Source: a virus
Virus record (IMG/VR): IMGVR_UViG_3300027782_000022
Strand: one strand, 5' to 3'
Length of the DNA stretch: 14,787 nt
Positions 128-14,739 of the stretch are shown piece after piece (position 1 is the stretch's first letter; the number at the start of each line of letters is the position of its first letter). The position numbers and the translations under genes are program-made. The notes beneath the pieces were generated by a model. It was not told the origin of the DNA, did not search any database, and saw nothing but the letters and a program-made list of their open reading frames with translations.

Positions 128-454
128 AGGGGCGGCGGGAGTGTCCGATGGCCTGTCTGAAAAACGGGTTGCAACTTTTTTTCCGTTCCGTTTCGCGGTG
201 GCTCGCGCTGATCCGAGTCGGCCGCCGTGTGATCGGTTGCAGCTGAGGTGGGCTATGCCTGCGGCGTCAAGGCTGGGGGCTATTTCGCCTGTTTCTGCCA
301 ATGGTGGTTCGTGGTCTGCGCTTGGGCCGTCTGGGTGTGATCCGGGCAAGGTCATGTCGACTGGGTAGCCGCAGCGGATACAGACGGCTTCGCATTTGGC
401 TAGGACTTGCTTGCGCCATGCTCGATAGGCCGCTGTGTTGTGGAGACTGCTCAT
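1..454 (-). CDS. HNH endonuclease domain ORF, partial in this window. It has no stop codon and continues in frame into the large terminase across the circular junction.
   Basis: The ATG at 454..452 overlaps the stop of the upstream 72-aa ORF (ATGA). Hand translation gives MSSLHNTAAYRAWRKQVLAKCEAVCIRCGYPVDMTLPGSHPDGPSADHEPPLAETGEIAPSLDAAGIAHLSCNRSHGGRLGSARATAKRNGKKVATRFSDRPSDTPAAPLNYPPEVPERSRRGQS, followed by the TerL start codon GTG. It carries a C-x2-C...DH...AH-x2-CN-x-S-x-G HNH signature. The frame is open to base 1, and bases 1..127 repeat the TerL 5' end. It is absent from the ORF track because it runs off the window edge. Confidence 0.8.
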   Translation of the reverse strand, partial: MSSLHNTAAYRAWRKQVLAKCEAVCIRCGYPVDMTLPGSHPDGPSADHEPPLAETGEIAPSLDAAGIAHLSCNRSHGGRLGSARATAKRNGKKVATRFSDRPSDTPAAPLNYPPEVPERSRRGQSVTEKARVHPEGFVLPRLETGPQRRTV

Positions 455-669
455 GCTCGGCGTCCGGCAAGAATCCTGTGGACTGCTTCGACGGGGTAGC
501 CCTTCTGTCGGGCTTGGCAGGCCATGAGCCAGCGCTCATGTGTTTCGGGTCGGCAGAACTGGCAGGGGCTGGTGTGGTCGGTGTCTATCCAGCCTCGGTA
601 ACAGATTACGTGGCCGCAGTTGCAGCCAGGCTTTCGACAGTGTGCGTCTATTTCGATGGGTGTGTGCAT
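451..669 (-). CDS. Cys-rich putative zinc-finger protein (72 aa) of unknown function. It is the first gene after the large non-coding region and is coupled to the HNH-TerL ORF.
   Basis: The ORF has 7 Cys (C-x4-C-x-C-x4-C...C-x2-C). An extended SD, aGGGGAAAcaaATG, lies upstream. Its stop overlaps the HNH start (ATGA). Confidence 0.7.
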   Translation of the reverse strand: MHTPIEIDAHCRKPGCNCGHVICYRGWIDTDHTSPCQFCRPETHERWLMACQARQKGYPVEAVHRILAGRRA

Positions 670-915
670 TTGTTTCCCCTAGCGTTTGCGGCCATTCGTC
701 CGGGCTTGTCCCTACGGGCCCAGCCGAACGGCCGTTGGTGGTTGAGTGAGTATCTTCCCCGATCATCCTCTAATCGTTTCCGATCTTGCATCTACTCCGC
801 GACCATGCACCCATTTCCGCATGGCAGGCCCACCAGCTTTAACCTGGGTTAGACCCGCCAATGACTCGGGCCATGGCATAGGGGGCGCTGCCATGCGGCG
901 ATGGTGCTGTGCGAG
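670..915. promoter_or_regulatory. Largest non-coding region of the genome (246 bp). Candidate promoter, operator, origin or packaging-site region.
   Basis: I found no convincing ORF in the sense direction. It lies between the last early-type gene and the packaging genes and contains clustered CATGGCA/CCATGC motifs and inverted repeats. No confident -35/-10 pair was identified. Confidence 0.45.
817..898. repeat. Inverted repeat: CCGCATGGCAG (817..827) and CTGCCATGCGG (888..898), 11/11 bp. A third CATGGCA copy lies at 872..878.
   Basis: Read directly from the sequence. The 889..895 arm (TGCCATG) can pair either with 872..878 (7 bp, 10-nt loop) or with 817..827 (11 bp, 60-nt loop). Flanking ccat/atgg (811..814 and 901..904) extends the long stem past a 2x2 internal loop. 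Confidence 0.75.
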
Positions 916-1044
916 TTAGTTAGATGCTTCGGGATGCTGTTCGAGGTAGGCCTGCCACACGTGGGCTTGGAGCCTGCCGCGCTGACCTACTGGAATGCCG
1001 ACCTTCCGAGCCCATGCCCGGACATCCTTTTCGGTTGCGATCAT
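916..1044 (-). CDS. Stand-alone Lsr2-like DNA-binding domain protein (42 aa).
   Basis: Hand translation gives MIATEKDVRAWARKVGIPVGQRGRLQAHVWQAYLEQHPEASN. This matches the Lsr2 C-terminal domain pattern (I/V)R-x-WAR-x2-G-x2-V-x2-RGR(I/L)-x3-V-x2-AY. The ATG overlaps the upstream stop (ATGA), and the SD aGGAGGGGAAAccgaATG lies upstream. The ORF is below the track length cutoff. Confidence 0.75.
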   Translation of the reverse strand: MIATEKDVRAWARKVGIPVGQRGRLQAHVWQAYLEQHPEASN

Positions 1045-1721
1045 TCGGTTTCCCCTCCTGTGAACGCTTCGACCGTGGTCGATTTAGCCATGTGCTCAAT
1101 GACGTCAGATGCTGCTCGCTTCGTCAGGTCGTCAAGGGTGGTGACGGTATCACGGTTCGCGGCCATGAGACAGGCATTGACAAGACCCATGAACTCTTCG
1201 CGTGTCGTAATGCCCATCTCTTTGGCCATGCCCCTGATCTTGCCTTTCTGAGCTGTGGAAGCATAGTTCTCCAGGCCTCCGTGCTCATTCCGTGTTGTGC
1301 GCGGGATAGGTTGTCCATTGGGGAAAGTCTCGACCACAGGTTGAGGCTTGTAAAACGGGTCGTCGGCTGGTGTACCAGTTAAACGCTCAGCCTTAGTCAT
1401 TTCCGTCATTGAGGCGCGGAACTTTTCTTTGGAGTATCCAGCATTTGCCAGGGCTCGACCGATGGCTGAGGTTTCGCAGTTTTCCAGGGCTGACGTCTTA
1501 TTGACTGGGGAGCCGCCGACTACCTCCTCGGCAAATCCGTTTGCAGCTAGTCGGTCGCCGATCCAGACTTGGGCCTCCATGACGTACTGGAGAGGTCGGC
1601 CTGTTTCGTCCCGAATAACCTCGATAAGCCTGGACTCGATGCGGCCATCGTCCTTGTGTTCGCCCCAAAACTTATGAATACGGGTGTCGACGGTTTCGTA
1701 TTGGCTGAGATCAAACGCCAT
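1041..1721 (-). CDS. Putative DNA-binding / recombination-replication protein (226 aa). The function is tentative.
   Basis: The ORF is long with good coding character. The N-terminal domain ends in NKTSALENCETSAIGRALANAGY, which resembles the terminal helix of Rad52/Sak-like phage annealing proteins as I remember them. The C-terminal region (AQKGKIRGMAKEMGI...LDDLTKRAASDVIEHM) resembles a helical tail common in phage replication and recombination proteins. No search was done. Confidence 0.55.
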   Translation of the reverse strand: MAFDLSQYETVDTRIHKFWGEHKDDGRIESRLIEVIRDETGRPLQYVMEAQVWIGDRLAANGFAEEVVGGSPVNKTSALENCETSAIGRALANAGYSKEKFRASMTEMTKAERLTGTPADDPFYKPQPVVETFPNGQPIPRTTRNEHGGLENYASTAQKGKIRGMAKEMGITTREEFMGLVNACLMAANRDTVTTLDDLTKRAASDVIEHMAKSTTVEAFTGGETE

Positions 1722-1851
1722 GATTTGCCGCCAATACTTCGACGCAGCGCCATGAACAGAAATGCATAGTCAGCCCGACGCGGGGCGTAAGCGTGATGAA
1801 AGCGCCGTCGTGCATAACAGTCCGGCAATCGTTGCATTGGTACAGGATCAT
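1711..1851 (-). CDS. FCS/TRASH-type zinc-ribbon mini-protein (46 aa).
   Basis: Hand translation gives MILYQCNDCRTVMHDGAFITLTPRVGLTMHFCSWRCVEVLAANHGV. The pattern is C-x2-C-x22-C-x3-C, with the hallmark FCS-x2-C. The ATG overlaps the upstream stop (ATGA), a GGGGAAAG SD lies upstream, and the 3' end overlaps the next gene by 11 nt. Confidence 0.65.
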   Translation of the reverse strand: MILYQCNDCRTVMHDGAFITLTPRVGLTMHFCSWRCVEVLAANHGV

Positions 1852-1976
1852 TTCTTTCCCCATTCTTCGCATATTTCCTTGTGGTGTTTTACTGCTTCAG
1901 CCAAAGCCGTTTTTACGGTTGGCCCCATGACGCGCCCACATGTGCAGGACGCCGAATACATGATGTAGGCGGTCAT
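1848..1976 (-). CDS. Hypothetical mini-protein (42 aa).
   Basis: Hand translation gives MTAYIMYSASCTCGRVMGPTVKTALAEAVKHHKEICEEWGKK. It has ATGA overlaps at both ends and fills what would otherwise be an empty gap in a tightly packed operon. I recognise no motif. Confidence 0.45.
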   Translation of the reverse strand: MTAYIMYSASCTCGRVMGPTVKTALAEAVKHHKEICEEWGKK

Positions 1977-2350
1977 GCCAGGATCTCCCATTCTCGGAGG
2001 ATGCGGCCATGATTGCCCTTGATTATCGATGTGGTAAACCCAGACGCTCGGATGAGGCCTTTAGAGGCCCAGGAGTGCATCAGGGCGCCGATCTGGTTGC
2101 TCGATCCGCAGGGTAGACCCACGTGCATCCTAAGGTCGTCGGCTGTGATTGTTTGCCCAGGCCCAAGGTTTCGCCTGTAATCGTTGGCGCGGTTGTGCCA
2201 TTCGGCATCCTTGACGACAGCGGCTGTGGCTGCGGCTTTGGCTGCATAACCGTCGCCAGCAGCACACCAGCTGCAAACGCCATTCCGGATAGGCCGACCA
2301 CAAGTAGTGCAGTCGTCAAGCGTTGTGGCGAATAAGGTTCCATCGTGCAT
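1973..2350 (-). CDS. Zn-ribbon plus putative winged-helix DNA-binding protein (125 aa). Possible regulator or replication initiator.
   Basis: I place the start at the internal ATG (MHDGTLFATTLDDCTTCGRPIRNGVCSWCAAGDG...) preceded by cGAAGGGGAAAcgATG. This is the same leader as the HTH gene. The 221-aa track ORF extends upstream over two other genes, so I reject that extension. CxxC...CxxC lies at the N-terminus, and the C-terminal NQIGALMHSWASKGLIRASGFTTS...NHGRILREWE looks wHTH-like. Confidence 0.7.
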   Translation of the reverse strand: MHDGTLFATTLDDCTTCGRPIRNGVCSWCAAGDGYAAKAAATAAVVKDAEWHNRANDYRRNLGPGQTITADDLRMHVGLPCGSSNQIGALMHSWASKGLIRASGFTTSIIKGNHGRILREWEILA

Positions 2351-2489: not shown

Positions 2490-2876
2490 CTACTTTCCTG
2501 GTGTGCAGGTCCAGCGACCGCCGGCCCAATGCTTTGAGCCCGACCACTTTCCCCTGTAATTAAGCGTTTCGACCATGGCCGCGATCTGAAGATTCCGAGG
2601 CCATTTGTGCATTTCTGTTGCCCTAAGGCGTGCGGCAAATTCCCTAGGCTTTGGGTGCCAGGTCTTCAGCCAGTCAAGCATCATCCATGTGGCCCCATCG
2701 GTCAGGGCGTCATTGAATTGGAACATTCCAAAGTACCCGTTTGTCCGGTTCGTGCTTTTCGGGTTGCTGTGTGATTCCCGCTCGGCCACACAATGCACAT
2801 AGGCAGCCTGATCGGGAGGGATCACGTAGGTCGGGCCTGCGAGGAGGGCCGCAGCTGTCACGGCCGCGACGATCAA
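2490..2876 (-). CDS. Transglycosylase/lysozyme-like protein with an Ala-rich N-terminal hydrophobic segment (128 aa). The start codon is uncertain.
   Basis: VAERESHSNPKSTNRTNGYFGMFQF resembles the E-S...G-(L/M)-(F/M)-Q catalytic region of SLT/Rpf-type transglycosylases. The N-terminus is MIVAAVTAAALLAGP. The track start is TTG, overlapping the HTH stop (TTGA). A GTG five codons downstream is an alternative start. Confidence 0.65.
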   Translation of the reverse strand: MIVAAVTAAALLAGPTYVIPPDQAAYVHCVAERESHSNPKSTNRTNGYFGMFQFNDALTDGATWMMLDWLKTWHPKPREFAARLRATEMHKWPRNLQIAAMVETLNYRGKWSGSKHWAGGRWTCTPGK

Positions 2877-3070
2877 ACCGCCTCGATGATCGTAACGGTA
2901 GGCGATACGCGAGTACGCGTGATTGCTTCCACGCTGTCGCGGTTTACTCGCCTCTGGCCGCCGGGCGTCCTGTGTCCCTCGATGATGCCGAGGTCGAGGT
3001 AGCGCCCGACCGTGTCAGTTGAGACGCCAAGGATCTTGGCAGCCTCTCCAGGTGTAATGATTTCGCTCAT
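2873..3070 (-). CDS. Excisionase/MerR-type helix-turn-helix DNA-binding protein (65 aa).
   Basis: ITPGEAAKILGVSTDTVGRYLDLGIIEGHRTPGGQRRVNRDSVE matches the HTH_17 / excisionase-family pattern. The leader cGAAAGGGGAAAcgATG follows a 49-bp non-coding gap. Confidence 0.85.
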   Translation of the reverse strand: MSEIITPGEAAKILGVSTDTVGRYLDLGIIEGHRTPGGQRRVNRDSVEAITRTRVSPTVTIIEAV

Positions 3071-3119
3071 CGTTTCCCCTTTCGAGGTAGAACGTAGCAG
3101 GCTTTACGCGATTTGCGCG

Positions 3120-3557
3120 CTATTTCTTGGGCGTGTTCAGGATCGGCAGCGGGAACGTCTGGGCGTTGTTTTCGCCCTTGGTTGTGAATGACACGTGAAT
3201 ATGGTGCATATGACCGTAGCCTGAGCCGCGCCATTTCCACATCGAGTTGGCGTATGTCCCTGAAGCAATTTGGTCATTGAAGACCACGTACTTGATGCGG
3301 TTAGCGCCTGGAATTCCTGAGGCCGCATAGGCCACGATCTGGTTAGCGAGCCGTTGTGCTGCGCCTGGATCTTTGGGGTCTAGGTCGGCGTCGATATCGA
3401 GGGCGTGGACCAGGCCTCGAGCGTCGGGGTTGTGGTCTGAATGCCTTCCGGCGTGTGCCTTGTCGCCGATCCAGCCGTCTGAACGCTTGTCGCGCTTGGG
3501 CCAGCGCTTATTGACCTGATTGCGGAGGGTTACGCCTCCGGCTACTAGGCGGGCCAT
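3120..3557 (-). CDS. Endolysin: single-domain zinc peptidase of the DD-peptidase/LAS (M15-like) fold (145 aa).
   Basis: His/Asp metal-ligand signature GDKAHAGRHSDHNPDARGLVHALDID...GHMHHIHVSF. It sits directly after holin-like genes (TAATG overlap at 3557). No cell-wall-binding domain is evident. Confidence 0.8.
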   Translation of the reverse strand: MARLVAGGVTLRNQVNKRWPKRDKRSDGWIGDKAHAGRHSDHNPDARGLVHALDIDADLDPKDPGAAQRLANQIVAYAASGIPGANRIKYVVFNDQIASGTYANSMWKWRGSGYGHMHHIHVSFTTKGENNAQTFPLPILNTPKK

Positions 3558-3805
3558 TACTCTCCCTCGATTTCTAGCTCGGGCATTGTGGCAGTGTCGT
3601 CCACATGGGGCCTCGAGTTCATGCCGTAGCGGTAATCGTCACGGTTGAGGGCGTTCATTAGGACGGGGATGCCTGCGGCCCCTAGGGCCACGATTAGGGG
3701 GTGAACGTTGGAGGTGGCAAGCCATGAGCCTAAGGCCCCTAGGAGGGCTCCTGCGAGGCTCTTAGCGACCGTACCTTCCCAAGTAACCGCCAGCCATTTA
3801 CCCAT
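3557..3805 (-). CDS. Holin candidate (82 aa, two predicted TM helices, charged C-terminal tail).
   Basis: Hydrophobic stretches SLAGALLGALGSWLA and PLIVALGAAGIPVLM. It lies immediately upstream of, and is coupled to, the endolysin. Confidence 0.7.
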   Translation of the reverse strand: MGKWLAVTWEGTVAKSLAGALLGALGSWLATSNVHPLIVALGAAGIPVLMNALNRDDYRYGMNSRPHVDDTATMPELEIEGE

Positions 3806-3820: not shown

Positions 3821-4027
3821 TTAGAGTCGACTTGCGAGGTCGTCGAGTTTCGCCGATATGTCGGCCAGGCTGGAGCCGCCGTTGCGGTAGCCGGGCTGAA
3901 TGGTCTTTGTGTAGCGCTCGATTTCTTGCCTGACGACTGATCGAATTAGCCAGAATAGGCCGGCGAGGATTGCGGCGAGAATGGTTATTACGCCGACCGC
4001 TACGCCGACGACATCTGTCCACTGCAT
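3821..4027 (-). CDS. Single-pass membrane protein (68 aa). Possible holin, antiholin or lysis accessory.
   Basis: N-terminal TM helix VVGVAVGVITILAAILAGLFWLI, followed by the soluble tail ...NGGSSLADISAKLDDL. I recall that motif from actinophage membrane proteins. Its position is in the lysis cassette. Confidence 0.65.
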   Translation of the reverse strand: MQWTDVVGVAVGVITILAAILAGLFWLIRSVVRQEIERYTKTIQPGYRNGGSSLADISAKLDDLASRL

Positions 4028-4036: not shown

Positions 4037-4177
4037 CTAACGATTCTTGAGGCGCTCGAGCACGATTGCCCGGGCGCGTTCCGTCGAGCTAGTCGGCTTA
4101 GGCGCGGCCTTCTTTGCCGGGCGCTTCTTGGGCTCCTCGAGTCCCTCAATGATTTCCTCGGTCTGCTGCTCGCTCAT
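4037..4177 (-). CDS. Highly charged mini-protein (46 aa) of unknown function.
   Basis: Hand translation gives MSEQQTEEIIEGLEEPKKRPAKKAAPKPTSSTERARAIVLERLKNR. The ATG overlaps the upstream stop (ATGA). Most third positions are G/C by eye, as in neighbouring genes. It fills a gap that would otherwise be 146 bp. Confidence 0.5.
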   Translation of the reverse strand: MSEQQTEEIIEGLEEPKKRPAKKAAPKPTSSTERARAIVLERLKNR

Positions 4178-4437
4178 GGGTTTAGTCCATTCATCCATAC
4201 CGGTGCAATAAATTCGTCTAGAGAGGGGTCATAAGTCCAACCGTATGAAGGAAATGACCCTCGGAAAGAGCCGCTATAAGAGCATTGCAACCAAGTTCCC
4301 GCAATCCCTAGCGATGCCTGGAAGGCCTGCCCAAGAGGTTCGGACTCTGGGAAGTCTCCCCCGTTAATGTCATCATTGTTAATGACCTGCACCTGAATAA
4401 CGCGGTTAGTCTCGTCAATTTCCGCAAAATGCGCCAT
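4174..4437 (-). CDS. Conserved small phage protein of unknown function (87 aa), downstream of the fibre gene.
   Basis: MAHFAEIDETNRVIQVQVINNDD...G..FQASLGIAGTWLQCSYSGSFRGSFPSYGWTYDPSLDEF resembles a widespread MAHFA... phage family seen next to tail-fibre genes, from memory. TAATG overlap with the fibre gene. Confidence 0.7.
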   Translation of the reverse strand: MAHFAEIDETNRVIQVQVINNDDINGGDFPESEPLGQAFQASLGIAGTWLQCSYSGSFRGSFPSYGWTYDPSLDEFIAPVWMNGLNP

Positions 4438-5483
4438 TACACGGCCACCCTAATAATTACGATTCCGGAACCTGAGTTTAGACCACTACCACTGCCGTTG
4501 CCGGAATTGGCCGCTCCGGCTCCAGAGCCTCCCGAGGCTCCATTGGAAAAGGTGTAAGAGCCTGCCGTGTAACTCGTGGTCGGCGTGGAGCCTGCAATTG
4601 ACGAGGCTTTGCCCGCGGTACTGACGTAAGCAAGGCCAGAAGCCGCGCTACCTGCGCCGCCGCCGTTGTTACCACTGCCATTTGTTCCTTGGTAAAGAAC
4701 GCCTGCACCGGCAGCACCGCCGCCCTGGCCGCCGCCCGAACCGCCACGAATTGCGTAAGTGTTCGCCGGGCCGCCGCCGGTAGCCGAAAGCCCTGTGAGA
4801 GTGATTGCCGAATCATTGCCGGTACCTTGTGGGCCTGCCCCCGCTCCAACGGTAACGGTGTAAGTACCCGCGGCCAGGTAAAGGCGAATGCCGCCCGATT
4901 GCGTCGAGTCAATCATTCCGCCTGCACCACCACCACCGCCGCCTGCACCACCACCGCCGCCGGCCACGATTAGGTAATCCGCAAAGCCCGCCCGGTCAAT
5001 GACTAGCGAACCGTTCCCGGTAAACGTCACGTACTTGTATCCGGTGTAGGTGCCGGTGGCGGTATTCGTAAAGTTTGCGCCGCTAGCACCCGAGGAAAAA
5101 GGGAGGCACCACCACACCGCGGCGGCCGAGTCATAAGTGAGACTGACGCCCGAGTATTGTGAACTAATCGAGTTTACGGTTCCCGTGACTGTGCCACCTG
5201 TAAAGGTAACCGCGCCGGTGTTAACCGAAAATACGTTGAGACGCATTCCATTAACTAGGCTGCTCGAGGGCAACGTAATAACTGTCGCACTTGCCGAGTT
5301 CATCACGATAGTCGTTCCGGCAAGAATGTCAGCCACTGTGACGGTGTAACTGGCAGTCTTCTTGGACATCGAGCCCGAGGCAACTACGTCGACTCGGTTG
5401 GCGAGGGCCAGGGAGGCCGTCGGGTAATTGGCTACGAGATCCGTCGAGGTGACGTAGGTCGTGCCTCCTGTAGTGGTTGCCAT
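4437..5483 (-). CDS. Minor tail protein / fibre with a glycine-rich domain (348 aa). Likely receptor-binding component.
   Basis: LIVAGGGGGAGGGGGGAGG...YTVTVGAGAG...GGSGGGQGGGAAGAG...GSGIVIIRV is typical of glycine-rich tail-fibre domains. A perfect AGGAGG SD lies upstream. Its position is after the Dit-like gene. Confidence 0.85.
   Translation of the reverse strand: MATTTGGTTYVTSTDLVANYPTASLALANRVDVVASGSMSKKTASYTVTVADILAGTTIVMNSASATVITLPSSSLVNGMRLNVFSVNTGAVTFTGGTVTGTVNSISSQYSGVSLTYDSAAAVWWCLPFSSGASGANFTNTATGTYTGYKYVTFTGNGSLVIDRAGFADYLIVAGGGGGAGGGGGGAGGMIDSTQSGGIRLYLAAGTYTVTVGAGAGPQGTGNDSAITLTGLSATGGGPANTYAIRGGSGGGQGGGAAGAGVLYQGTNGSGNNGGGAGSAASGLAYVSTAGKASSIAGSTPTTSYTAGSYTFSNGASGGSGAGAANSGNGSGSGLNSGSGIVIIRVAV
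4921..4962. repeat. Tandem 21-bp duplication (20/21 identical) inside the glycine-rich fibre gene.
   Basis: The units are CCTGCACCACCACCACCGCCG and CCTGCACCACCACCGCCGCCG, back to back and in frame. They encode the poly-Gly/Ala run AGGGGGAGGGGGGAGG. Confidence 0.85.
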
Positions 5484-9076: not shown

Positions 9077-9166
9077 TGCTCAACACCTCCACGATGGTTG
9101 CTAGTTGCCTGGGATCGTAGGCCGCGACTTCCTCGATCGGCCTGCCGATTCTTACGGCGACTTGGA

Positions 9167-9445: not shown

Positions 9446-9469
9446 GACGTTTCCCCGTTCTCTAGTTGG

Positions 9470-10223: not shown

Positions 10224-10549
10224 TAGCCGATCATTCCCCGGACATCCATATACGGCCCCAGGAGGGCCATAACGCGACGGGTCATCCAGACCGATAGCCG
10301 GTAGGGGCCAGGGCTGAAATCGGTCGCCACGGCCTGCCCACCTGCGGCGGTGCGTGCCTGGTAGATCTCGACCGCTACTGAGAGGGCGGCTTCCTTACAT
10401 GCCGGGGGCTCGAGTTCGTAGGCCCCGTCCGTGAGTAGGGACGCGACGATATCGTCGGCAGCAGCTGCTACCTGATCGTAAGGCTCCTGGGGCGGGTCAT
10501 AGTCGAGGTCCAGCGCTGTCGCCAGTTCCTCACCCGTCACGAGTGCCAT
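10223..10549 (-). CDS. Head-tail adaptor/connector (gp6-like, 108 aa).
   Basis: It is the first gene after the capsid gene. The N-terminus LVTGEELATALDLDYD...AAAADDIVASLLT fits the gp6-like connector pattern. Confidence 0.65.
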   Translation of the reverse strand: MALVTGEELATALDLDYDPPQEPYDQVAAAADDIVASLLTDGAYELEPPACKEAALSVAVEIYQARTAAGGQAVATDFSPGPYRLSVWMTRRVMALLGPYMDVRGMIG

Positions 10550-10577: not shown

Positions 10578-12098
10578 TTAGTCTTCGAGGCTGATGATGC
10601 CAGCGCCGGAGATGATCTGCGAGGCGCCGTAGCCATAGACCGCAACGTCGCGGCCCAACTGTGCGACGTTCTCGACGGTGGCGAGACGGGGGCCGTCTTC
10701 GATCCACTTGGCTGCCTCGCGGTTGGAGACGATTGCAGCATTGCCGCCCAGGTTGCGGTCGAGGATGACCGGGAGACCTGAGACGCTAACGGCGAGAGTG
10801 TTTGCGCTTGCCGTACCCGACACGTTGTAGGTGCCGTAGTTGGACGGGAAGAACGTGCTCCAGCCGCCGATCTTGATGAACACTGCCGGGGAGACCAGGA
10901 CGAATTCGGCCGGCATTCCGGTCGCGGTCTGGCACTCGACGGATGCTGCGAACACTGCCTCGCGGAAGGCCGAGCCATCCGTGTCGGCTGTGATGTCGTA
11001 GGTGAGCGGGGTGCGCGCACCGTAGACGGCTGCGATGAACGCGATGTCCGTAACCTGAACGTACGAGTTCAGCATGATGCGGGTGTGTGCATCGACGTAG
11101 GACGGGGTGGAGCGCTGAAGCAGCTGGTAGGAGATGTCCGAGCCAGCGGCGTAGGTCTTCAGCGTTGCGGTGCCCTTGAGAAGGTCGATGCGAACCGAGT
11201 TAACCTCGTCCTTTTCGTCGATTTGCTCGGCCACAATCTCGGTCAAATCGCCTGACCAGTAAGGCCAGTTAAAGACGGTGCCCGAGGTGCCAGCTGACTC
11301 CGTGCCGAATGCGGTGATGGTCGGGCGACCTAGGTCGAAGATGCCGCGAACGATGCTCGACCAGTTCGGGGGCAGGACGCCTGGGTTATTGTCTGTGATC
11401 TGATCGACCAGGGCGCGTGCCTCGATCTCGCCGTTCAGAACTGCAAGGCGGTACTCGCCAAAGCTGCGGTACTGGGCGAGTTCGTGCACCTGGGGGGCTG
11501 CGGCGTATGAGCGTGCCTCGATCTGAGCAACCTGCTCACGAACGGTGGCAATGGCCTCACGTGCCTGGATGTCGGCGGTGACCGCAGGAGCGGTTTCCAC
11601 CTCTACGGTTTCGACTGACATTTCTTCCTCTCGGATTGCTGTTACACCGGCCGTGGGATATGCCGGCATATGGGTTATTGACGTCTCCATGAGAGAGGCC
11701 GCCATGTGCTGGACCGCAGTCTTTGCCCGGTTCCAGACAGATTTGGTCGGCATGAAACCGACAGAAAGGCCCTTTGCGGAGCCTGTGCGGATGAGGGTCG
11801 CGGCGTCGCGGCCCTGCACTGTGTTGGCGATATTAAAGTCGATGTAAAGCCCGTCTGGCTTATTCTCAGCTGCGGTAATAACGCCGATGGGCTCATTGTG
11901 GCGGTAGGCGATGGGCTTGCCGATAACGTCCTCGGGCTGGAAAGCGTTAGCGCCGAAAGATTCACGCACATTGCCGATGTTTGTTTCGACTCCGTAGGGG
12001 ACGGCGCGACCGTAGCCCTGTCCGGCGATGTCGGGGTTTGCGCTGTCCTCGCGCATTTCGACAATGAAATCGGCTGAAAACTCTGTGGTCTGCATCAT
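10578..12098 (-). CDS. Fusion polyprotein: HK97-family prohead serine protease (S78) - short acidic/coiled linker - HK97-fold major capsid protein (506 aa).
   Basis: N-terminal protease motifs are IAYRHNEPIG, GLSVGF and METSITHMPAYP. The linker is REEEMSVETVEVETAPAVTADIQAREAIATVREQVAQIEARS. The C-terminal ~300 aa is typical of HK97-like capsid proteins (...LPPNWSSIVRGIFDLGRPTITAFGTE...). ATGA coupling to the portal gene. Confidence 0.9.
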   Translation of the reverse strand: MMQTTEFSADFIVEMREDSANPDIAGQGYGRAVPYGVETNIGNVRESFGANAFQPEDVIGKPIAYRHNEPIGVITAAENKPDGLYIDFNIANTVQGRDAATLIRTGSAKGLSVGFMPTKSVWNRAKTAVQHMAASLMETSITHMPAYPTAGVTAIREEEMSVETVEVETAPAVTADIQAREAIATVREQVAQIEARSYAAAPQVHELAQYRSFGEYRLAVLNGEIEARALVDQITDNNPGVLPPNWSSIVRGIFDLGRPTITAFGTESAGTSGTVFNWPYWSGDLTEIVAEQIDEKDEVNSVRIDLLKGTATLKTYAAGSDISYQLLQRSTPSYVDAHTRIMLNSYVQVTDIAFIAAVYGARTPLTYDITADTDGSAFREAVFAASVECQTATGMPAEFVLVSPAVFIKIGGWSTFFPSNYGTYNVSGTASANTLAVSVSGLPVILDRNLGGNAAIVSNREAAKWIEDGPRLATVENVAQLGRDVAVYGYGASQIISGAGIISLED

Positions 12099-13264
12099 GG
12101 CCTCAGTTGGGGGTCGGGTTCCATTAGGTCGGGCAGGTCGAGCAGTTCGCGGGATTCATCAATTGAAATGACATCGAGGGGGCGCAGCGTCGAAATGAGC
12201 GTGGCGATTTCTGCCGGATTGCCGCGTAGGAATACCGAAGTATCGAACTCGACGGTGTGGCCGCGGGGCGTGATGTCATTCATTGAGAGGCGCTGCGAGA
12301 TCTGAAGCATGACCGGGGTGAGGCTGAGGTCGAGCAGCTGACGATAAAGGTCGGTTCGGTTTGAGTATGTGAGGCTTGATCCTGATTGTGTGGCATTGAC
12401 CCAAGCGGCGTCAAGGTTTGCCTGCCGAGCGATTGCGAGGGCTGAGGCGTCTCGGGCTTGGACGAGCTGCATATCGTTGGGGTTCCAGCCGCCCACGTTC
12501 TCAGTCGAGATCGTCGAGTTTAGGTAGGCGGTCGAACGGTTAGTTCTAGCGGCTTCCCAGGCGTCGAGCAGATCATCGACTACAGCGCTGGGCAGATCCG
12601 CGCCCGAGTTCTTCAGGATAACGTTCGGGACGGGGTATTCGGCGTATCGGAGCGATGCGGCCTCGAGTGCTGCCGCAGTGTTGCAGGCCGAGGCCATGGT
12701 GGTCAGCCATCCGCCGGCGCCGTCGCCATCGAAGCGGATGACGTCCCGGGGCGGGACGGGTGTGCCGTTCCAATAGACAGTTCCGAAAGCCGGGATCGGG
12801 TCCATGATGTCTTGGGTCGTCGGCCCCGGCACGAATGAGATTTGGGTGTATGGCATCCATACGATTTCGGTCGGGTAGCCATCCCATGCTCGGGATTCGA
12901 CCTTCCAGTATGCCTCGCCGTACAGCAGCTGATCCTGAACGGTGCGGCCCATGAGCGCGGCGTAGGTGGTCTGCATTGACGGTTGCACAAGTAGGCCTCG
13001 GGCCACGATTTGATCCTTGCCGACATATTCCTTAAGCGGAAAAGCGGAGATCGTGTTCGTGTAGACCTTTAGGCACTTGACAAAGGCTGGAACCTGAAGC
13101 GCGACGCCGAGATCTACGCCGTAACTCTGGGAGCGCTGGATGGCGGTGAGCAGTTGCGCGGAAGAGTCGCGGATGTACGGGACCGGCTCGGCCACGGCCT
13201 GCGCTGCCGCTGACTGGATCAAAGCCTGGTCCCGTACAACCTTGAGTGAACGGGGAAACGCCAC
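12095..13264 (-). CDS. Portal protein (HK97-type, 389 aa), GTG start.
   Basis: Its size and its position between terminase and protease/capsid fit a portal. The overall sequence character is typical of phage portals. GTG is the only in-frame start after the upstream stop. Confidence 0.88.
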   Translation of the reverse strand: MAFPRSLKVVRDQALIQSAAAQAVAEPVPYIRDSSAQLLTAIQRSQSYGVDLGVALQVPAFVKCLKVYTNTISAFPLKEYVGKDQIVARGLLVQPSMQTTYAALMGRTVQDQLLYGEAYWKVESRAWDGYPTEIVWMPYTQISFVPGPTTQDIMDPIPAFGTVYWNGTPVPPRDVIRFDGDGAGGWLTTMASACNTAAALEAASLRYAEYPVPNVILKNSGADLPSAVVDDLLDAWEAARTNRSTAYLNSTISTENVGGWNPNDMQLVQARDASALAIARQANLDAAWVNATQSGSSLTYSNRTDLYRQLLDLSLTPVMLQISQRLSMNDITPRGHTVEFDTSVFLRGNPAEIATLISTLRPLDVISIDESRELLDLPDLMEPDPQLRP

Positions 13265-13320
13265 GGGTGTAATTCTGGTCCCATATCACACGCTGGTCAA
13301 GCCATCGCGCTTTTCGCGGT

Positions 13321-14739
13321 TTATGCGCGTCGGCGTGTATGGATTCGAGCCATGGGCCTCGGGGTCTTGCTTGCCTGGTAGGCCGCGAACATGACGGCCC
13401 GTGCTGCGTACACGCCTCCATGGCCCATCCGGGCAGACATGACCCATCCGCCTTGGCGCTTGGAGATATTCGATTGCGTGAAATGCTCCAATAGCGTTTC
13501 CGAATCTTCGTGGACTATTGCCCGACGGTCGAACAGATCTAGGAGGTTCTGGGTTGCAGCTGCGGCTTCGCGCTGCCCGACGAGTTCGTCGAAACGCTCT
13601 TGAAGCCTGTCTACATAGCCTGGGGTGACCTGTATAAATAGGCTGGGGTGATCCTTGCGGATTTCCCCTAAGCGTGCGTCGACATCCTTAATCGTTCGGT
13701 GAGTAGTGGCCCGGACAACGATGCGCCCATCCTCCAGCGGTGCGGCGATTGCTACAGCGTGGCCCATTCCGTCAAAGTCGGACTCGACCGCCACAGACCA
13801 GATCCCCTCGGGGGGCAACCCTTCGTCGGAGAGGGTTTCTTTCCACCAGGAATCTTTCAGCCAATGGTTTGCCCGGGGAACCCACATATTCAGGTATTCG
13901 CGCAGCCATGAGGATTGCTCGATGTTTTCCCATTGGCCTCGGAGGAAGGCCTCGCGCTTATCGTTCCATTCTGGGCTAGCGTACTTCCAGGTTTCCGGAT
14001 CGTCAGGATCTGCGGTCGGTGGCGCTGACCATTCCAGGAGCAGAATATTTCCAGGATCATCGGCCCCGAGGTGGTCGATTGCCCTTTGCCGATATGAGGC
14101 CATGAGATCGCTCGATGAGTCACCAGCCGTGGAAACTAGGAAGGCCTGCGGGTTGAGTCGCTCGGCCATGGTCGGCGCGATAGCGCCCATGAACACCTGG
14201 CTAGGGATGCTCCAGGCTTCATCGAGGAAAGCCATGTTTATGGAGAATCCGACGCCAGCGGAATCGTTTGCTGCATGAATTAGCCATCGGTCGCCGGACG
14301 GTAGTTCGATGCCTGCCCGTTCGTTACCCCATCGGGCTGCTTGCTTGCCGTACTTTTCCACGGCCCAAATGCCAGCCGGACGCATAACCTCCATGGCGGT
14401 TGAGCGCTTATTGGCCACATGGAGAATCGTCTGCGGCTCCCCGAACAGTTCGGCATGGTGAAGCCGCCACATGCAGATTGCCCGAGACAGGACCGACTTG
14501 CCGGACTGCCGAGCGACTGTAAGCACGACCGTCGGCCAGCACAGTTCCCCAGTTTCGGGGTAATACTCCAGCGCCCGGTCGAGCGCGTAAGCCTGCCAGC
14601 CTCTCAGCTGCAATCCGTACACGGTAGACAGCCAAACCCGAGCCGCGGGGCCATGCGTTTCCACAGTCCTCCGTTGCGGCCCTGTCTCCAACCGTGGCAG
14701 CACGAACCCTTCAGGATGTACCCGAGCCTTCTCGGTCAC
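13321..14739 (-). CDS. Terminase large subunit (472 aa from the GTG). The reading frame stays open upstream to the window edge and joins the HNH ORF on the circle.
   Basis: Walker A-like VARQSGKS, Walker B MAFLDEAW, and a C-terminal RNaseH-like nuclease region (VAVESDFDGMGHAVAIA). The GTG at 14739 has AGGAGAGG 7 nt upstream. Confidence 0.92.
   Translation of the reverse strand: MTEKARVHPEGFVLPRLETGPQRRTVETHGPAARVWLSTVYGLQLRGWQAYALDRALEYYPETGELCWPTVVLTVARQSGKSVLSRAICMWRLHHAELFGEPQTILHVANKRSTAMEVMRPAGIWAVEKYGKQAARWGNERAGIELPSGDRWLIHAANDSAGVGFSINMAFLDEAWSIPSQVFMGAIAPTMAERLNPQAFLVSTAGDSSSDLMASYRQRAIDHLGADDPGNILLLEWSAPPTADPDDPETWKYASPEWNDKREAFLRGQWENIEQSSWLREYLNMWVPRANHWLKDSWWKETLSDEGLPPEGIWSVAVESDFDGMGHAVAIAAPLEDGRIVVRATTHRTIKDVDARLGEIRKDHPSLFIQVTPGYVDRLQERFDELVGQREAAAATQNLLDLFDRRAIVHEDSETLLEHFTQSNISKRQGGWVMSARMGHGGVYAARAVMFAAYQASKTPRPMARIHTRRRA

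What the first reader, a model, noticed from the sequence alone, without database searches (positions are those of the whole stretch)
128..14660. Near-minimal tailed-phage gene set: virion and lysis genes but no recognisable replication, integration, partition or small-terminase genes
About 26 genes, all on one strand, are packed with ATGA/TAATG/TTGA overlaps at 454, 1044, 1851, 1976, 2876, 3557, 4177, 4437, 6711, 8618, 10223 and 12098. Roughly 11 kb is virion and lysis genes.

The remaining ~3 kb encodes only small DNA-binding or zinc-finger proteins, a 226-aa annealing-protein-like candidate, a transglycosylase-like protein and mini-peptides. I see no polymerase, primase, helicase, integrase, ParAB or TerS. 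Replication must therefore be almost entirely host-driven.

From memory, the smallest described siphoviruses of Actinobacteria are of similar size: Rhodococcus RRH1 at about 14 kb, Arthrobacter cluster AN at about 15 kb and Microbacterium cluster EE at about 17 kb. This could be a relative or a new lineage of that size class.
Basis: partly seen in the sequence, partly recalled or inferred. Interest (0 to 1): 0.7.

Follow-up and report, generated by a model that had tools for sequence, protein, structure and literature searches.

The report
Complete 14.7-kb minimal tailed phage
This is the complete 14,660-base genome of an uncultured, very small tailed phage, probably of actinobacteria, that carries no replication enzymes; that kind of "miniphage" is already known, but here the gene for the DNA-cutting and packaging enzyme unusually runs across the physical ends of the packaged DNA.

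Summary
The window is a closed assembly (bases 1-127 equal 14661-14787; 14,660 unique bases). It carries 24-25 minus-strand genes, is about 95% coding, and all twelve listed start/stop overlaps are real. About 12 kb encodes packaging, virion and lysis genes. The other ~2.6 kb encodes small DNA-binding or zinc-ribbon proteins, a lysozyme-like protein and a Rad52/Mgm101-like annealing protein. No polymerase, primase, helicase, integrase, ParAB or TerS was found.

This pattern is already known from Rhodococcus phage RRH1, clusters AN and EE, and freshwater ~15-kb "miniphages". The window is a new uncultured lineage of that class. Its closest cultured relatives (cluster EE) are only ~25% identical in five genes.

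- The last right-arm ORF is an HNH nuclease domain that reads in frame across the assembly junction into TerL, giving a 597-aa fusion.
- The physical genome ends lie inside that ORF. At least 15 independent contigs start, and 27 of 48 end, flanking an invariant 13-mer (window 128-140). Two ends abut Illumina adapter.

This cos resembles the experimentally defined 3' overhang of cluster EE. The fusion is in frame in 17 of 17 junction-spanning relatives. Interest is moderate.

The parts
1..127 (.). Assembly overlap, identical to 14661-14787. Window base 14787 (equivalent to 127) is the first base of the physical left end when read on the coding (minus) strand.
   Evidence: The repeat is exactly 127 nt. 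Relative L011 has the same 127-nt overlap but is broken at a different place, so 127 is taken to be the assembler's k-mer (inference). At least 15 independent contigs start at or within a few bases of the position homologous to window 127.
128..140 (-). cos core: inferred 13-nt 3' cohesive overhang, 5'-TCCCGCCGCCCCT-3' on the coding strand. It encodes part of Thr-Pro-Ala-Ala-Pro in the HNH-TerL linker.
   Evidence: The 13-mer occurs once in the window, at 128-140. Of 48 HNH-anchored contigs, 27 stop at or within about 15 nt of it; 14 of these stop at one identical position, after ...CAC. L063 ends ...CAC and L086 ends ...CAC plus the 13-mer, each followed directly by Illumina adapter. Left-end contigs begin with the base after the 13-mer. 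The 13-mer is essentially invariant, wobble positions included, in about 15 distinct junction sequences. Cluster EE has an experimentally determined '3' 9-b ext' (PMC7302621 Table 1); taking the last 9 nt of the Quaker record as that extension (deposit convention, from memory) gives ...GACAC|CCCGCCCCA.
141..170 (-). Conserved right-end flank of cos: invariant AC next to the nick and a TTTT(T/C)MAR block 16-24 nt upstream. Possible terminase or host-factor binding site.
   Evidence: Anchored comparison of 16 junction sequences. The function is inferred only.
1..454 (-). 5' part of the HNH-TerL gene: ATG at 454, HNH nuclease domain (aa 5-88) and a variable linker. There is no stop codon; the frame continues across the junction into 14660..13321.
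   Evidence: Circular translation gives a 597-aa ORF. The HNH domain matches phrog_338 HNH endonuclease at E 6.5e-12. Cys, His and Asn residues of the HNH region are invariant in 26 homologs. Its cultured-phage homologs are the last gene before the right genome end.
13321..14787 (-). 3' part of the HNH-TerL gene: large terminase (ATPase and nuclease). In this genome only there is a possible internal start, GTG at 14739 (equivalent to 79), preceded by AGGAGAGG.
   Evidence: phrog_9 terminase large subunit, E 1.6e-39, aa 134-584; Pfam Terminase_6N. Many full-length fusion homologs (585-611 aa, 98-100% coverage) exist down to 56% identity. All 17 distinct junction-spanning sequences are in frame and stop-free, with six linker lengths. 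The internal GTG is absent in many relatives.
12095..13264 (-). Portal protein (389 aa)
   Evidence: Pfam Phage_portal E 1.8e-28; phrog_12 E 1.9e-37.
10578..12098 (-). Prohead protease-(scaffold)-major capsid fusion protein (506 aa)
   Evidence: Peptidase_S78 at aa 28-157 and Phage_capsid_4 at aa 251-492. phrog_2263 E 4.9e-57 over the whole length. About 25% identical to the cluster EE 'major capsid and protease fusion protein'.
10223..10549 (-). Head-tail adaptor or connector candidate (108 aa)
   Evidence: Weak match to phrog_5938 (E 0.002) plus gene position. Conserved in relatives.
9852..10223 (-). Tail terminator-like protein (123 aa)
   Evidence: Matches Quaker 'tail terminator' (phmmer E 9e-7, 25% identity) and phrog_22278 (E 5e-4).
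9470..9847 (-). Major tail protein candidate (125 aa)
   Evidence: Assigned by position only. No family match. Conserved in relatives.
9167..9445 (-). Tail assembly chaperone candidate (92 aa). A -1 frame stays open from 9461 to 9054.
   Evidence: Assigned by position only. No canonical slippery heptamer was seen.
8618..9076 (-). Conserved 152-aa virion-module protein of unknown role, located between the chaperone and the tape measure
   Evidence: No family match. Conserved in all relatives, including distant ones.
6708..8633 (-). Tape measure protein candidate (641 aa; alternative start at 8618)
   Evidence: Assigned by size, position and composition. No family match. Conserved at 50-69% in relatives.
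5494..6711 (-). Minor or distal tail protein (405 aa)
   Evidence: Assigned by position. Weak match to phrog_38875. Conserved in relatives.
4437..5483 (-). Glycine-rich tail tip or receptor-binding candidate (348 aa)
   Evidence: Pfam Gly_rich_2 E 2e-6; phrog_2295. Only the N-terminal third is conserved among relatives.
4174..4437 (-). 87-aa protein of unknown function; variable among relatives
   Evidence: phrog_7759, unknown function, E 1e-16. Present in only some relatives.
4037..4198 (-). Small charged 46-53-aa protein (alternative start at 4177)
   Evidence: ORF with an overlapping start. Conserved in most relatives. No family match.
3821..4027 (-). Holin-like membrane protein with one hydrophobic helix (68 aa)
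   Evidence: The sequence shows an N-terminal hydrophobic stretch. It sits upstream of the lysin. The role is inferred.
3557..3805 (-). Holin-like membrane protein with two hydrophobic helices (82 aa)
   Evidence: Sequence features and a TAATG overlap with the lysin gene. The role is inferred.
3120..3557 (-). Endolysin catalytic-domain candidate (145 aa, His/Asp-rich)
   Evidence: Homologs occur only in actinophages. In Glutamicibacter phage Montesquieu the homologous region is the N-terminal part of a protein encoded between the tail genes and the annotated holin. No Pfam or PDB sequence match.
2873..3070 (-). Excisionase-family / MerR / BldC-like helix-turn-helix protein (65 aa); likely a regulator
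   Evidence: HTH_17 E 2.9e-10 and MerR E 1.2e-9. TIGR01764 'excise', 40.6 bits against a cutoff of 28.8; BldC family E 6.7e-9, below its cutoff. Similar to Quaker HTH gp24.
2490..2876 (-). Lysozyme / lytic-transglycosylase-like protein with a hydrophobic N-terminus (128 aa)
   Evidence: Only sub-threshold matches to Rpf-type Transglycosylas, Phage_lysozyme2 and SLT, and a weak match to a c-type lysozyme catalytic motif. It is a core gene in relatives.
1973..2350 (-). Cys4 region plus winged-helix DNA-binding protein (125 aa); accessory gene
   Evidence: AF2 model: residues 50-125 have block-mean pLDDT 74-94 and form a winged helix. Fold matches are generic winged-helix proteins. The 281 profile homologs listed are all small proteins. 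Absent from several relatives.
1848..1991 (-). 42-47-aa Cys/His-containing mini-protein (alternative start at 1976); accessory gene
   Evidence: ORF with an overlapping start. Found in only one of the compared relatives.
1711..1851 (-). 46-aa CxxC...CxxxC zinc-ribbon mini-protein
   Evidence: Read from the sequence. Its start overlaps the upstream stop. The region aligns in 6 of 7 relatives. No PADLOC match.
1041..1721 (-). Rad52-superfamily (Mgm101/Erf/Sak3-like) single-strand annealing protein candidate (226 aa). It is the only DNA-metabolism protein outside the packaging enzyme.
   Evidence: Member of a very large family. AF2 N-terminal domain (block-mean pLDDT 86-97) forms helix, three strands, helix. 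Top PDB fold match is Mgm101, followed by many RAD52 chains, with E >= 3e-3. BFVD matches include ERF and SAK3, E 1e-6 to 1e-4. A homolog is annotated 'mgM101-like protein'. Core gene in all relatives compared.
916..1044 (-). Stand-alone Lsr2 DNA-binding domain (42 aa)
   Evidence: Pfam Lsr2_DNA-bd, 37.9 bits against a cutoff of 26.9; phrog_6269 'Lsr2-like DNA bridging protein', E 2.6e-8.
451..669 (-). 72-aa Cys/His-rich zinc-ribbon-like protein whose stop overlaps the HNH start. Candidate partner of the HNH nuclease.
   Evidence: Sequence. Core gene in relatives. Only faint RING or zinc-finger matches. Zinc-ribbon proteins next to cos-adjacent HNH genes are described in PMC3592412. The role is inferred.

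Best explanation
The window is the complete genome of an uncultured, probably lytic, cos-type siphovirus-like phage. It belongs to the known architectural class of very small actinobacteriophages.

Shown:
- The sequence is 14,660 unique bases in a closed assembly. All 24-25 genes lie on one strand.
- About 12 kb encodes the packaging enzyme, portal, a protease-capsid fusion, tail and lysis genes.
- The other ~2.6 kb encodes an excisionase/BldC-like HTH protein, a lone Lsr2 DNA-binding domain, several zinc-ribbon mini-proteins, a lysozyme-like protein and a Rad52/Mgm101-like annealing protein.
- No replication, integration, partition or small-terminase gene is detectable.
- The terminase gene is an HNH-TerL fusion.
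- Independent contigs end on either side of an invariant 13-mer that lies inside this gene's linker.

Inferred life cycle:
1. The packaged DNA is linear, with 13-nt 3' cohesive ends.
2. After injection the ends anneal and are ligated. This rebuilds the HNH-TerL reading frame, so terminase can be made only from circular or concatemeric DNA.
3. Host RNA polymerase and the host replisome do transcription and replication.
4. The small DNA-binding proteins steer these processes.
5. The annealing protein helps form the multimers or concatemers that a cos terminase needs.
6. The fused HNH and TerL nucleases, perhaps with the adjacent zinc-ribbon protein standing in for a small terminase, cut cos and package unit-length genomes.
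For: Completeness:
- The terminal overlap is exactly 127 nt.
- Three relatives are linear contigs with both ends at or within about 15 nt of the same point: 14,655, 14,840 and 15,079 bp.

Gene content:
- Family scans identify the packaging, head and some tail genes.
- Nothing matched in eight antisense ORFs scanned with Pfam. There are no tRNA genes or Rfam matches.
- There is no nucleotide match to phage or plasmid records.

Class membership:
- The protease-capsid fusion and gene order match cluster EE and RRH1.

HNH-TerL fusion:
- Circular translation gives one 597-aa ORF, with both domains detected.
- Full-length fusion homologs exist down to 56% identity.
- All 17 distinct junction-spanning sequences are in frame, across six linker lengths.
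- The internal start codon is not conserved.

cos inside the ORF:
- At least 15 contig starts and 27 of 48 contig ends flank the 13-mer.
- Illumina adapter is fused directly to two of those ends.
- The 13-mer is conserved at wobble positions.
- The site resembles the experimentally defined cluster EE 3' overhang.

HNH type: homologs in cultured actinophages are the last gene before the right end. HK97 gp74 is the functional precedent.

Annealing protein.

Actinobacterial affinity: an Lsr2 domain, BldC-like similarity, lysin homologs found only in actinophages, nearest cultured relatives all actinophages, and MAG bins mostly Actinomycetota.
Against: - No read-level data were available. The termini are inferred from contig ends, not from coverage steps.
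- The polarity of the overhang rests on three indirect points: the 13 nt are missing from most ends, one adapter-tagged end retains them, and the site resembles cluster EE.
- In this particular genome a GTG with a good Shine-Dalgarno sequence (14739) could give a separate TerL.
- The annealing-protein assignment has weak PDB statistics (best E 3e-3) and rests on a predicted model.
- Several small proteins remain unassigned. One could be an origin-binding or helicase-recruiting factor that these libraries cannot recognise.
- No promoter, terminator or origin-like repeat was found.
- The host is not established. The window's ~58% G+C does not fit the 'low-GC' Nanopelagicales into which two fragments were binned.
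Confidence: 0.75

Rival explanations
1. HNH and TerL work as two separate proteins, and the read-through is incidental. TerL would be translated from an internal start (GTG 14739 here). The HNH ORF would simply have lost its stop codon, or the fusion would be cut after translation.
For: The window has a GTG preceded by AGGAGAGG just downstream of cos. In every cultured relative examined the HNH is a separate gene.
Against: The internal start is missing in many relatives. In those, the first ATG lies about 100 codons into TerL. All 17 junction-spanning sequences stay in frame and stop-free across six linker lengths, all multiples of three. That pattern is not expected without selection on the fusion.
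Confidence: 0.2
2. The shared contig ends are assembly or sequencing breaks at a G+C-rich motif, not physical termini. The phage would then be circularly permuted, or would have ends elsewhere.
For: The 13-mer is a C/G-rich run, and such runs can cause Illumina coverage drops (my own knowledge). No read-level data were examined.
Against: Fourteen contigs end at one identical position, and left ends start exactly 13 nt further on. Adapter sequence is fused directly to two ends. Twenty contigs assemble through the site without trouble. Three contigs run end to end. The motif matches the experimentally determined cluster EE cos. An HNH next to terminase is typical of cos phages.
Confidence: 0.06
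3. Replication is not purely host-driven. One of the small conserved DNA-binding proteins would be a cryptic initiator that binds an origin and recruits the host helicase. Candidates are the 65-aa HTH, the 72-aa zinc protein and the C-terminal domain of the 226-aa protein.
For: The 65-aa HTH, the 72-aa zinc protein and the 226-aa protein are core genes across the lineage. The 226-aa protein has a second, conserved helical C-terminal domain of unknown role. Small initiators are hard to detect by homology.
Against: No match to any initiator, DnaD/DnaB-like, helicase-loader or primase family in four libraries. No iteron-like repeats were found. Published small actinophages are likewise described as lacking DNA-metabolism genes.
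Confidence: 0.3
4. The sequence is not an autonomous phage. It would be a fragment of a larger genome, a satellite, a plasmid-like element or a prophage remnant.
For: The genome is very small. It lacks replication and small-terminase genes. It encodes an excisionase-family HTH protein.
Against: The assembly is closed. Many independent contigs of 14.4-15.1 kb have the same gene order and the same ends. It carries a full packaging, head, tail and lysis set. There is no integrase or partition gene and no plasmid match. Cultured phages of the same architecture are autonomous and lytic.
Confidence: 0.03

Closest known systems
Microbacterium phages of cluster EE (family Orlajensenviridae, e.g. Quaker MH371111, 17,450 bp)
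   Same: The gene order is the same: terminase, portal, protease-capsid fusion, adaptor, tail terminator, tail genes, lysis genes, then small DNA-binding proteins including an Lsr2-like one, with an HNH next to the right end. These phages are lytic, with no integrase or replication genes. The cos is similar...GACAC followed by a C-rich 3' overhang.
   Different: Only five proteins are detectably related, at 24-41% identity. EE is about 2.8 kb larger and has two extra genes upstream of its terminase. Its HNH is a separate gene with its own stop codon 74 nt before the end, and three of its genes are on the other strand. No annealing-protein homolog was detected in EE. Its overhang is 9 nt rather than 13 nt.
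[quoted passage not shown]
   Same: Nearly the same size. All 20 genes are on one strand. It has a large capsid gene related to the protease-capsid fusion, and an HNH as the last gene before the right end. The portal is 30% identical.
   Different: RRH1 has separately annotated TerS, TerL and HNH genes. Only three proteins are clearly related, plus a marginal HNH match.
Arthrobacter cluster AN phages (~15.5 kb)
   Same: [quoted passage not shown]
   Different: They were not compared gene by gene here. According to that paper they lack any DNA-metabolism gene, whereas this lineage carries an annealing protein.
Freshwater 'miniphages' (Kavagutti et al. 2019, PMC6802176)
   Same: That study reports a peak of complete phage genomes near 15 kb in freshwater metagenomes, 155 of them under 15 kb, some predicted to be actinophages. 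One TerL relative (64% identity) is deposited as 'uncultured Caudovirales phage' CAB4191156.1.
   Different: The paper's main text gives no gene-level or packaging analysis of these genomes. That CAB4191156.1 comes from that study is my assumption.
HK97-type cos packaging: TerS gp1 + TerL gp2 + HNH gp74
   Same: An HNH nuclease works with TerL at a cos site, and in the circular map the HNH gene sits next to the terminase genes. Zinc-ribbon proteins are often encoded beside such HNH genes.
   Different: Here the HNH is covalently fused to TerL, no TerS is detectable, and cos lies inside the fused gene rather than between genes.
Rad52-superfamily annealing proteins (Mgm101, Rad52, phage Erf and Sak3)
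   Same: The predicted N-terminal domain has a three-stranded sheet followed by a long helix, and matches Mgm101 and RAD52 structures. Viral-library matches include ERF and SAK3. A homolog is annotated 'mgM101-like'.
   Different: There is no significant sequence match to any solved structure. The protein has a distinct C-terminal helical domain. Annealing activity is untested.

Membership tests
Small-genome actinobacteriophage architecture class (EE, AN, AX, FE, CW, DM, RRH1) | Complete tailed-phage genome under 20 kb | tested here: met
   14,660 unique bases in a closed assembly. Three end-to-end relatives measure 14.66-15.08 kb, and further cos-terminated contigs measure 14.4-15.0 kb.
Small-genome actinobacteriophage architecture class (EE, AN, AX, FE, CW, DM, RRH1) | Protease-scaffold-capsid fused in one gene | tested here: met
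   Peptidase_S78 and a capsid domain lie in one 506-aa ORF; phrog_2263 matches at E 4.9e-57. The feature is stated as common to the class in PMC7302621.
Small-genome actinobacteriophage architecture class (EE, AN, AX, FE, CW, DM, RRH1) | Few non-structural genes and no replication enzymes | tested here: met
   No polymerase, primase, helicase or initiator in four libraries. The one DNA-metabolism protein is an annealing-protein candidate.
Small-genome actinobacteriophage architecture class (EE, AN, AX, FE, CW, DM, RRH1) | Actinobacterial host | tested here: inconclusive
   Supporting: an Lsr2 domain, BldC-like HTH similarity, lysin homologs found only in actinophages, and MAG bins that are mostly Actinomycetota. 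Against: there is no CRISPR or isolate evidence, and the G+C content does not fit the Nanopelagicales bins.
Cluster EE / Orlajensenviridae (membership by relatedness) | Substantial shared gene content or sequence similarity with members | tested here: not met
   No nucleotide match. Only 5 of about 25 proteins are related, at 24-41% identity.
HK97-type HNH-assisted cos packaging | HNH nuclease domain encoded next to the terminase across cos | tested here: met
   phrog_338 HNH matches at E 6.5e-12, with conserved Cys, His and Asn residues. The HNH lies directly upstream of TerL on the circular map. Homologs are the last gene at the right end in cultured phages.
HK97-type HNH-assisted cos packaging | Defined cohesive genome ends | tested here: met
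   Contig starts and ends flank an invariant 13-mer, and adapter is fused to two of the ends. This is indirect evidence, with no read-level or wet-lab confirmation.
HK97-type HNH-assisted cos packaging | HNH, TerS and TerL as three separate proteins | tested here: not met
   HNH and TerL form a single ORF in 17 of 17 junction sequences. No TerS was detected; the only trace is a weak phrog_57 match (E 7e-4) to the HTH of the 65-aa protein.
Rad52-superfamily single-strand annealing proteins | Beta-beta-beta-alpha core fold similar to Rad52/Mgm101 | tested here: met
   The AF2 model has block-mean pLDDT 86-97 over most of the N-terminal domain, arranged as helix, three strands, helix. The top PDB match is Mgm101 (probability 1.0, rmsd 3.1 A over 89 columns), followed by many RAD52 chains, but with E >= 3e-3. 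BFVD matches to ERF and SAK3 have E 1e-6 to 1e-4.
Rad52-superfamily single-strand annealing proteins | Ring oligomer that binds and anneals single-stranded DNA | not testable with these tools
   This needs biochemistry.
Temperate phage | Integrase (or ParAB or telomerase) plus a repressor | tested here: not met
   No integrase, transposase or partition family matched. The 65-aa HTH matches the 'excise' DNA-binding domain only.
Phage satellite (PICI/SaPI-like) | Lacks its own capsid, tail and terminase genes and depends on a helper | tested here: not met
   TerL, portal, capsid and lysis genes are present, together with tail genes assigned largely by position.

The most novel reading that the evidence does not exclude
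This lineage may carry the simplest cos packaging system seen so far. A single HNH-TerL polypeptide would supply both nucleases and the motor, with no small terminase. Its gene is physically split by the genome ends, so terminase can be expressed only after the injected DNA has circularised or concatemerised. That would act as a built-in timer tying packaging to genome closure, and the cos site would be both a DNA signal and coding sequence (Thr-Pro-Ala-Ala-Pro).
Probability: 0.4. Interest if true: 0.7.

Novelty: new variant of a known kind. Interest (0 to 1): 0.5.

Why it matters
The minimal gene set adds one more well-populated, uncultured lineage to a phenomenon already described: tailed phages of about 14-17 kb that rely on the host for replication.

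The more useful result concerns packaging. This is a compact natural system in which the accessory HNH nuclease of cos phages is fused to the large terminase. No small terminase is detectable, and the cos site sits inside the gene.

If confirmed, it offers three things:
- A one-polypeptide model for studying how HNH and TerL cooperate to make staggered cuts.
- An example of a gene that exists only on the circular form of a linear virus genome.
- A practical warning for virome annotation. Linear contigs of these phages start in the middle of TerL and end in a stop-less HNH ORF, so gene callers truncate both.

It also supplies a ready cos motif and many complete reference genomes for an abundant group of aquatic phages.

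Tried and rejected
- Nucleotide searches of the whole window against GenBank phages and PLSDB plasmids found nothing.
- tRNA and Rfam scans found nothing.
- The sigma-70 promoter and intrinsic-terminator scan gave fewer sites than shuffled sequence, and none in the non-coding gaps.
- A repeat search of the right arm gave no iteron-like arrays. The only recurring motif is the shared ribosome-binding site GGGGAAAC.
- Sliding identity to seven relatives showed no unusually conserved non-coding block.
- Sequence and profile searches of the 226-aa protein against PDB sequences gave only chance-level hits. The fold search was needed.
- The lysin and the lysozyme-like protein gave no significant PDB sequence match.
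- I looked for a canonical slippery heptamer for a tail-chaperone frameshift and saw none.
- Source names of TerL homologs gave almost no host information. The GTDB scan gave only binned fragments and one fragmented, distant TerL on a Gaiellaceae contig.
- The isolated 'Ca. Nanopelagicales' phages are unrelated 39-kb genomes.
- Literature searches for an HNH-terminase fusion, or for a gene spanning cos, found nothing relevant. The nearest item was non-coding transcripts crossing cos in mycobacteriophage D29.
- I considered whether the 127-nt terminal repeat is a true terminal redundancy and rejected it. L011 has the same overlap length at a different breakpoint, and the linear relatives lack it.
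- The RRH1 paper (PMC3255915) was not available.

Full report
**1. What is in the window**

The two ends of the window are identical over exactly 127 nt (1-127 equals 14661-14787). The unique sequence is therefore 14,660 bases, and the assembly closes on itself. G+C is about 58%, and cumulative GC skew shows no switch.

All plausible genes are on the minus strand. With 24-25 genes the genome is 94.6% coding.

**2. Gene content**

Family scans identify these genes:
- large terminase (phrog_9, E 1.6e-39)
- portal (Pfam Phage_portal, E 1.8e-28)
- a single 506-aa prohead-protease plus major-capsid fusion (Peptidase_S78 and a capsid domain; phrog_2263, E 4.9e-57)
- a connector candidate
- a tail-terminator-like protein
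- a glycine-rich tail protein

The major tail protein, chaperone, tape measure and a 405-aa tail protein are assigned by position and by conservation in relatives.

The lysis region has two small membrane proteins and a 145-aa His/Asp-rich protein. Homologs of that protein occur only in actinophages. In Glutamicibacter phage Montesquieu the homologous region is the N-terminal part of a protein encoded between the tail genes and the annotated holin.

The right arm (window 3070 down to 128) encodes:
- a 65-aa excisionase-family/BldC-like HTH (TIGR01764, 40.6 bits against a cutoff of 28.8)
- a 128-aa lysozyme or transglycosylase-like protein, with sub-threshold matches only
- a 125-aa Cys4 plus winged-helix protein
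- two or three zinc-ribbon mini-proteins
- a 226-aa protein
- a 42-aa stand-alone Lsr2 DNA-binding domain (PF23359, 37.9 bits against a cutoff of 26.9)
- a 72-aa Cys/His-rich protein
- an HNH nuclease domain (phrog_338, E 6.5e-12)

Nothing resembling a polymerase, primase, helicase, initiator, integrase, ParAB or small terminase was found in Pfam, PHROGs, NCBIfam or PADLOC. Eight long antisense ORFs scanned against Pfam gave no hit. There are no tRNA genes or Rfam matches.

**3.

The 226-aa protein belongs to a very large family. Its AlphaFold model has a confident N-terminal domain arranged as helix, three strands and a long helix. The best PDB fold match is yeast Mgm101 (probability 1.0, rmsd 3.1 A over 89 columns), followed by many human RAD52 chains. 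The E-values are weak (3e-3 or higher).

In the viral structure library the named matches are ERF, SAK3 and a lactococcal phage recombinase, with E from about 1e-6 to 1e-4. One homolog in a phage record is annotated 'mgM101-like protein'. Sequence-only searches against PDB found nothing. I accept it as a Rad52-superfamily annealing-protein candidate. It is a core gene in every relative compared.

The 125-aa protein has a low-confidence Cys4 N-terminus and a confident winged helix. Its fold matches are generic DNA-binding winged helices. The 281 profile homologs listed are all small proteins, and the gene is missing from several relatives. It is not a replication enzyme.

**4. Relatives**

No phage record in the collection is similar at the nucleotide level, and no protein match exceeds 60% identity.

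The best matches to the capsid fusion are the 17.4-kb Microbacterium cluster EE phages (family Orlajensenviridae), at about 25% identity. A protein-by-protein comparison finds only five related proteins in Quaker. In RRH1 it finds three, plus a marginal HNH match. Identities are 24-41%. The gene order is nevertheless the same.

Uncultured relatives are numerous. There are 39 IMG/VR contigs found through the capsid gene and 48 through the HNH domain. More than 250 TerL protein clusters and thousands of homologs of the 226-aa protein also exist, many on contigs of 14.4-15.6 kb.

The following genes are conserved in relatives whose capsid is 68-76% and whose terminase is 57-65% identical:
- HNH-TerL, portal, capsid fusion and connector
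- tail genes
- the lysozyme-like protein
- the annealing protein
- the 72-aa zinc protein

The holin-like proteins, the lysin and the 65-aa HTH are conserved in most relatives but were not detected in the most divergent one (L027).

**5. What is already published**

[quoted passage not shown] This architecture is shared with AN, AX, FE, CW, DM and RRH1 (PMC7302621).
- Freshwater metagenomes show a peak of complete phage genomes near 15 kb, the 'miniphages' (PMC6802176).

The near-minimal gene set is therefore a known pattern. The window is a new lineage within it.

**6. The HNH-TerL fusion**

The ORF that starts at 454 has no stop codon before the window start. On the circle it continues in the same frame into the TerL ORF, giving 597 aa.

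Many homologs of 585-611 aa cover 98-100% of this fusion, down to 56% identity. The alignment keeps the HNH Cys, His and Asn residues invariant.

As an unbiased check I took every distinct DNA sequence that spans the junction. All 17 of 17 keep HNH and TerL in one stop-free frame. Linker lengths are 177, 180, 183, 186, 189 and 222 nt, all multiples of three.

The window has a possible internal TerL start (GTG 14739 with AGGAGAGG upstream). That codon is absent in many relatives, where the first ATG lies about 100 codons into TerL.

In cultured actinophages the nearest HNH homologs are always the last, separate gene before the right end. RRH1 and Quaker have separate HNH and terminase genes, and RRH1 also has a separate TerS.

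**7. The genome ends lie inside that gene**

- Left ends: of the 39 capsid-anchored contigs, at least 15 from different metagenomes start at or within a few bases of the position homologous to window 127, which is also where the window itself ends.
- Right ends: of the 48 HNH-anchored contigs, 27 stop 68-123 nt after the HNH catalytic motif. Fourteen stop at exactly the same base, after ...CAC. Twenty read through.
- The gap: between the two kinds of end lie 13 nt, 5'-TCCCGCCGCCCCT-3' (window 128-140). These are missing from the end-to-end linear contig L034.
- Adapter evidence: L063 ends ...CAC followed directly by Illumina adapter. L086 ends ...CAC plus the full 13-mer followed by adapter. 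L090 stops inside the 13-mer.
- Full-length contigs: three contigs have both ends at or within about 15 nt of this point, at 14,655, 14,840 and 15,079 bp.
- Conservation: the 13-mer and the preceding AC are essentially invariant in about 15 distinct junctions, including wobble positions, while neighbouring codons drift. A TTTT(T/C)MAR block upstream and a TCCCCC(C)A block downstream are also conserved.
- Comparison with cluster EE: cluster EE phages have an experimentally determined '3' 9-b ext' (PMC7302621 Table 1). Quaker's record ends ...GACAC CCCGCCCCA, against ...GACAC TCCCGCCGCCCCT here. That the last 9 nt of the record are the extension is the deposit convention, recalled from memory.

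I conclude that the virion DNA is linear with 13-nt cohesive ends, most likely 3' extensions, located in the codons Thr-Pro-Ala-Ala-Pro of the HNH-TerL linker. The 127-nt overlap is most simply the assembler's k-mer, because L011 has the same overlap length at a different breakpoint.

**8. How it most likely works**

Shown: the gene set, the fusion, and the positions of the contig ends.

Inferred:
1. After injection the cohesive ends anneal and are sealed by host ligase. This recreates the HNH-TerL gene, so terminase is made only from circular or concatemeric DNA.
2. Transcription proceeds in one direction round the circle by host RNA polymerase. It is modulated by the BldC/excisionase-like HTH, the Lsr2-domain protein and the zinc-ribbon proteins.
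3. DNA synthesis uses the host replisome.
4. By analogy with lambda (my own knowledge), a cos terminase needs multimeric substrates and recombination can supply them. The annealing protein would help produce packageable multimers.
5. HK97 gp74 is an HNH that binds TerL and stimulates cos cleavage. Zinc-ribbon proteins are often encoded next to such HNH genes (PMC3592412). Here the HNH is tethered to TerL, and the 72-aa zinc protein overlaps its start. This suggests a compact cos endonuclease that may not need a classical small terminase.
6. Lysis would use the two membrane proteins, the 145-aa lysin and the secreted lysozyme-like protein.

**9. Host**

Several features point to Actinomycetota:
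- an Lsr2 domain
- BldC-like HTH similarity
- lysin homologs found only in actinophages
- nearest cultured relatives all actinophages

Fragments are binned in two Ca. Nanopelagicales MAGs, and also in Acidimicrobiia, Bifidobacteriaceae, Gaiellaceae and one Alphaproteobacteria MAG. Binning is weak evidence. The window's 58% G+C does not fit the low-GC Nanopelagicales. The host is unresolved.

**10. Verdict**

The 'near-minimal' gene set, however, is a documented property of small actinophages and of freshwater miniphages.

Two things appear new, as far as the accessible literature shows. The first is the lineage itself. The second is its packaging arrangement: an HNH-TerL fusion whose gene spans the cohesive ends, with no detectable small terminase.

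I rate it a new variant of a known kind, of moderate interest.

Noticed in passing
L063 (last 17 nt) and L086 (last 24 nt): Two public IMG/VR contigs carry untrimmed Illumina adapter sequence at their ends (AGATCGGAAGAGCGTCG and AGATCGGAAGACACACGTCTGAAC), fused directly to the phage terminus. This is contamination in the database records, but it is informative about the physical ends.
   Followed up: yes
window 9054-9461 (minus strand): A -1 reading frame stays open across the end of the putative tail-assembly-chaperone gene (9167-9445), as expected for the usual chaperone frameshift product. I saw no canonical slippery heptamer.
   Followed up: partly
window 4437-5483: Only the N-terminal third of the glycine-rich 348-aa tail protein is conserved among otherwise close relatives. 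The rest is replaced, which is the pattern expected of a receptor-binding protein under host-range diversification.
   Followed up: partly
window 1041-1721 (protein residues ~117-125): The disordered linker of the annealing-protein candidate contains a conserved acidic motif, (P/T)xDDP(F/W). It is reminiscent, from memory, of the acidic C-terminal tip of bacterial SSB, so it may be a protein-interaction motif.
   Followed up: no
window 141-170 and 105-121: Conserved DNA blocks flank cos: TTTT(T/C)MAR lies 16-24 nt before the nick, and TCCCCC(C)A lies 7-15 nt after the 13-mer. An imperfect palindrome (AAAACGGGTTGCAAC / GTTGCAACTTTTTTT, window 161-182) overlaps the upstream block. These could be cosB-like binding sites.
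   Followed up: partly
window 8618-9076: A 152-aa gene sits between the chaperone and the tape-measure gene. It is conserved in all relatives but has no family match. Cluster EE has an unassigned gene at a nearby but not identical position, between its major tail protein and its chaperone.
   Followed up: no
L045 10001-10882 (Gaiellaceae MAG contig of 121,867 bp): A distant TerL relative (39-57% identity per piece) lies on a long bacterial contig. It is broken into four pieces in different frames. It is either a decaying prophage or the result of indel errors in a long-read assembly.
   Followed up: partly
window 3063-3081, 2343-2361 and other gene starts: Many genes share the same ribosome-binding context, (A)GGGGAAAC followed by 2-4 nt and the ATG. 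This produces short direct repeats that are not regulatory arrays.
   Followed up: yes
window 763-894 and 536-766: Two further small ORFs (43 and 76 aa) lie in or overlap the 246-nt gap between the Lsr2-domain gene and the 72-aa zinc protein gene. They have no family matches and only patchy conservation. The gap also holds a 24-nt imperfect inverted repeat (811-834 / 881-904).
   Followed up: partly
relatives (P0128): One close homolog of the 226-aa protein (86% identity) comes from a Tara-labelled sample, so the lineage may not be restricted to fresh water.
   Followed up: no
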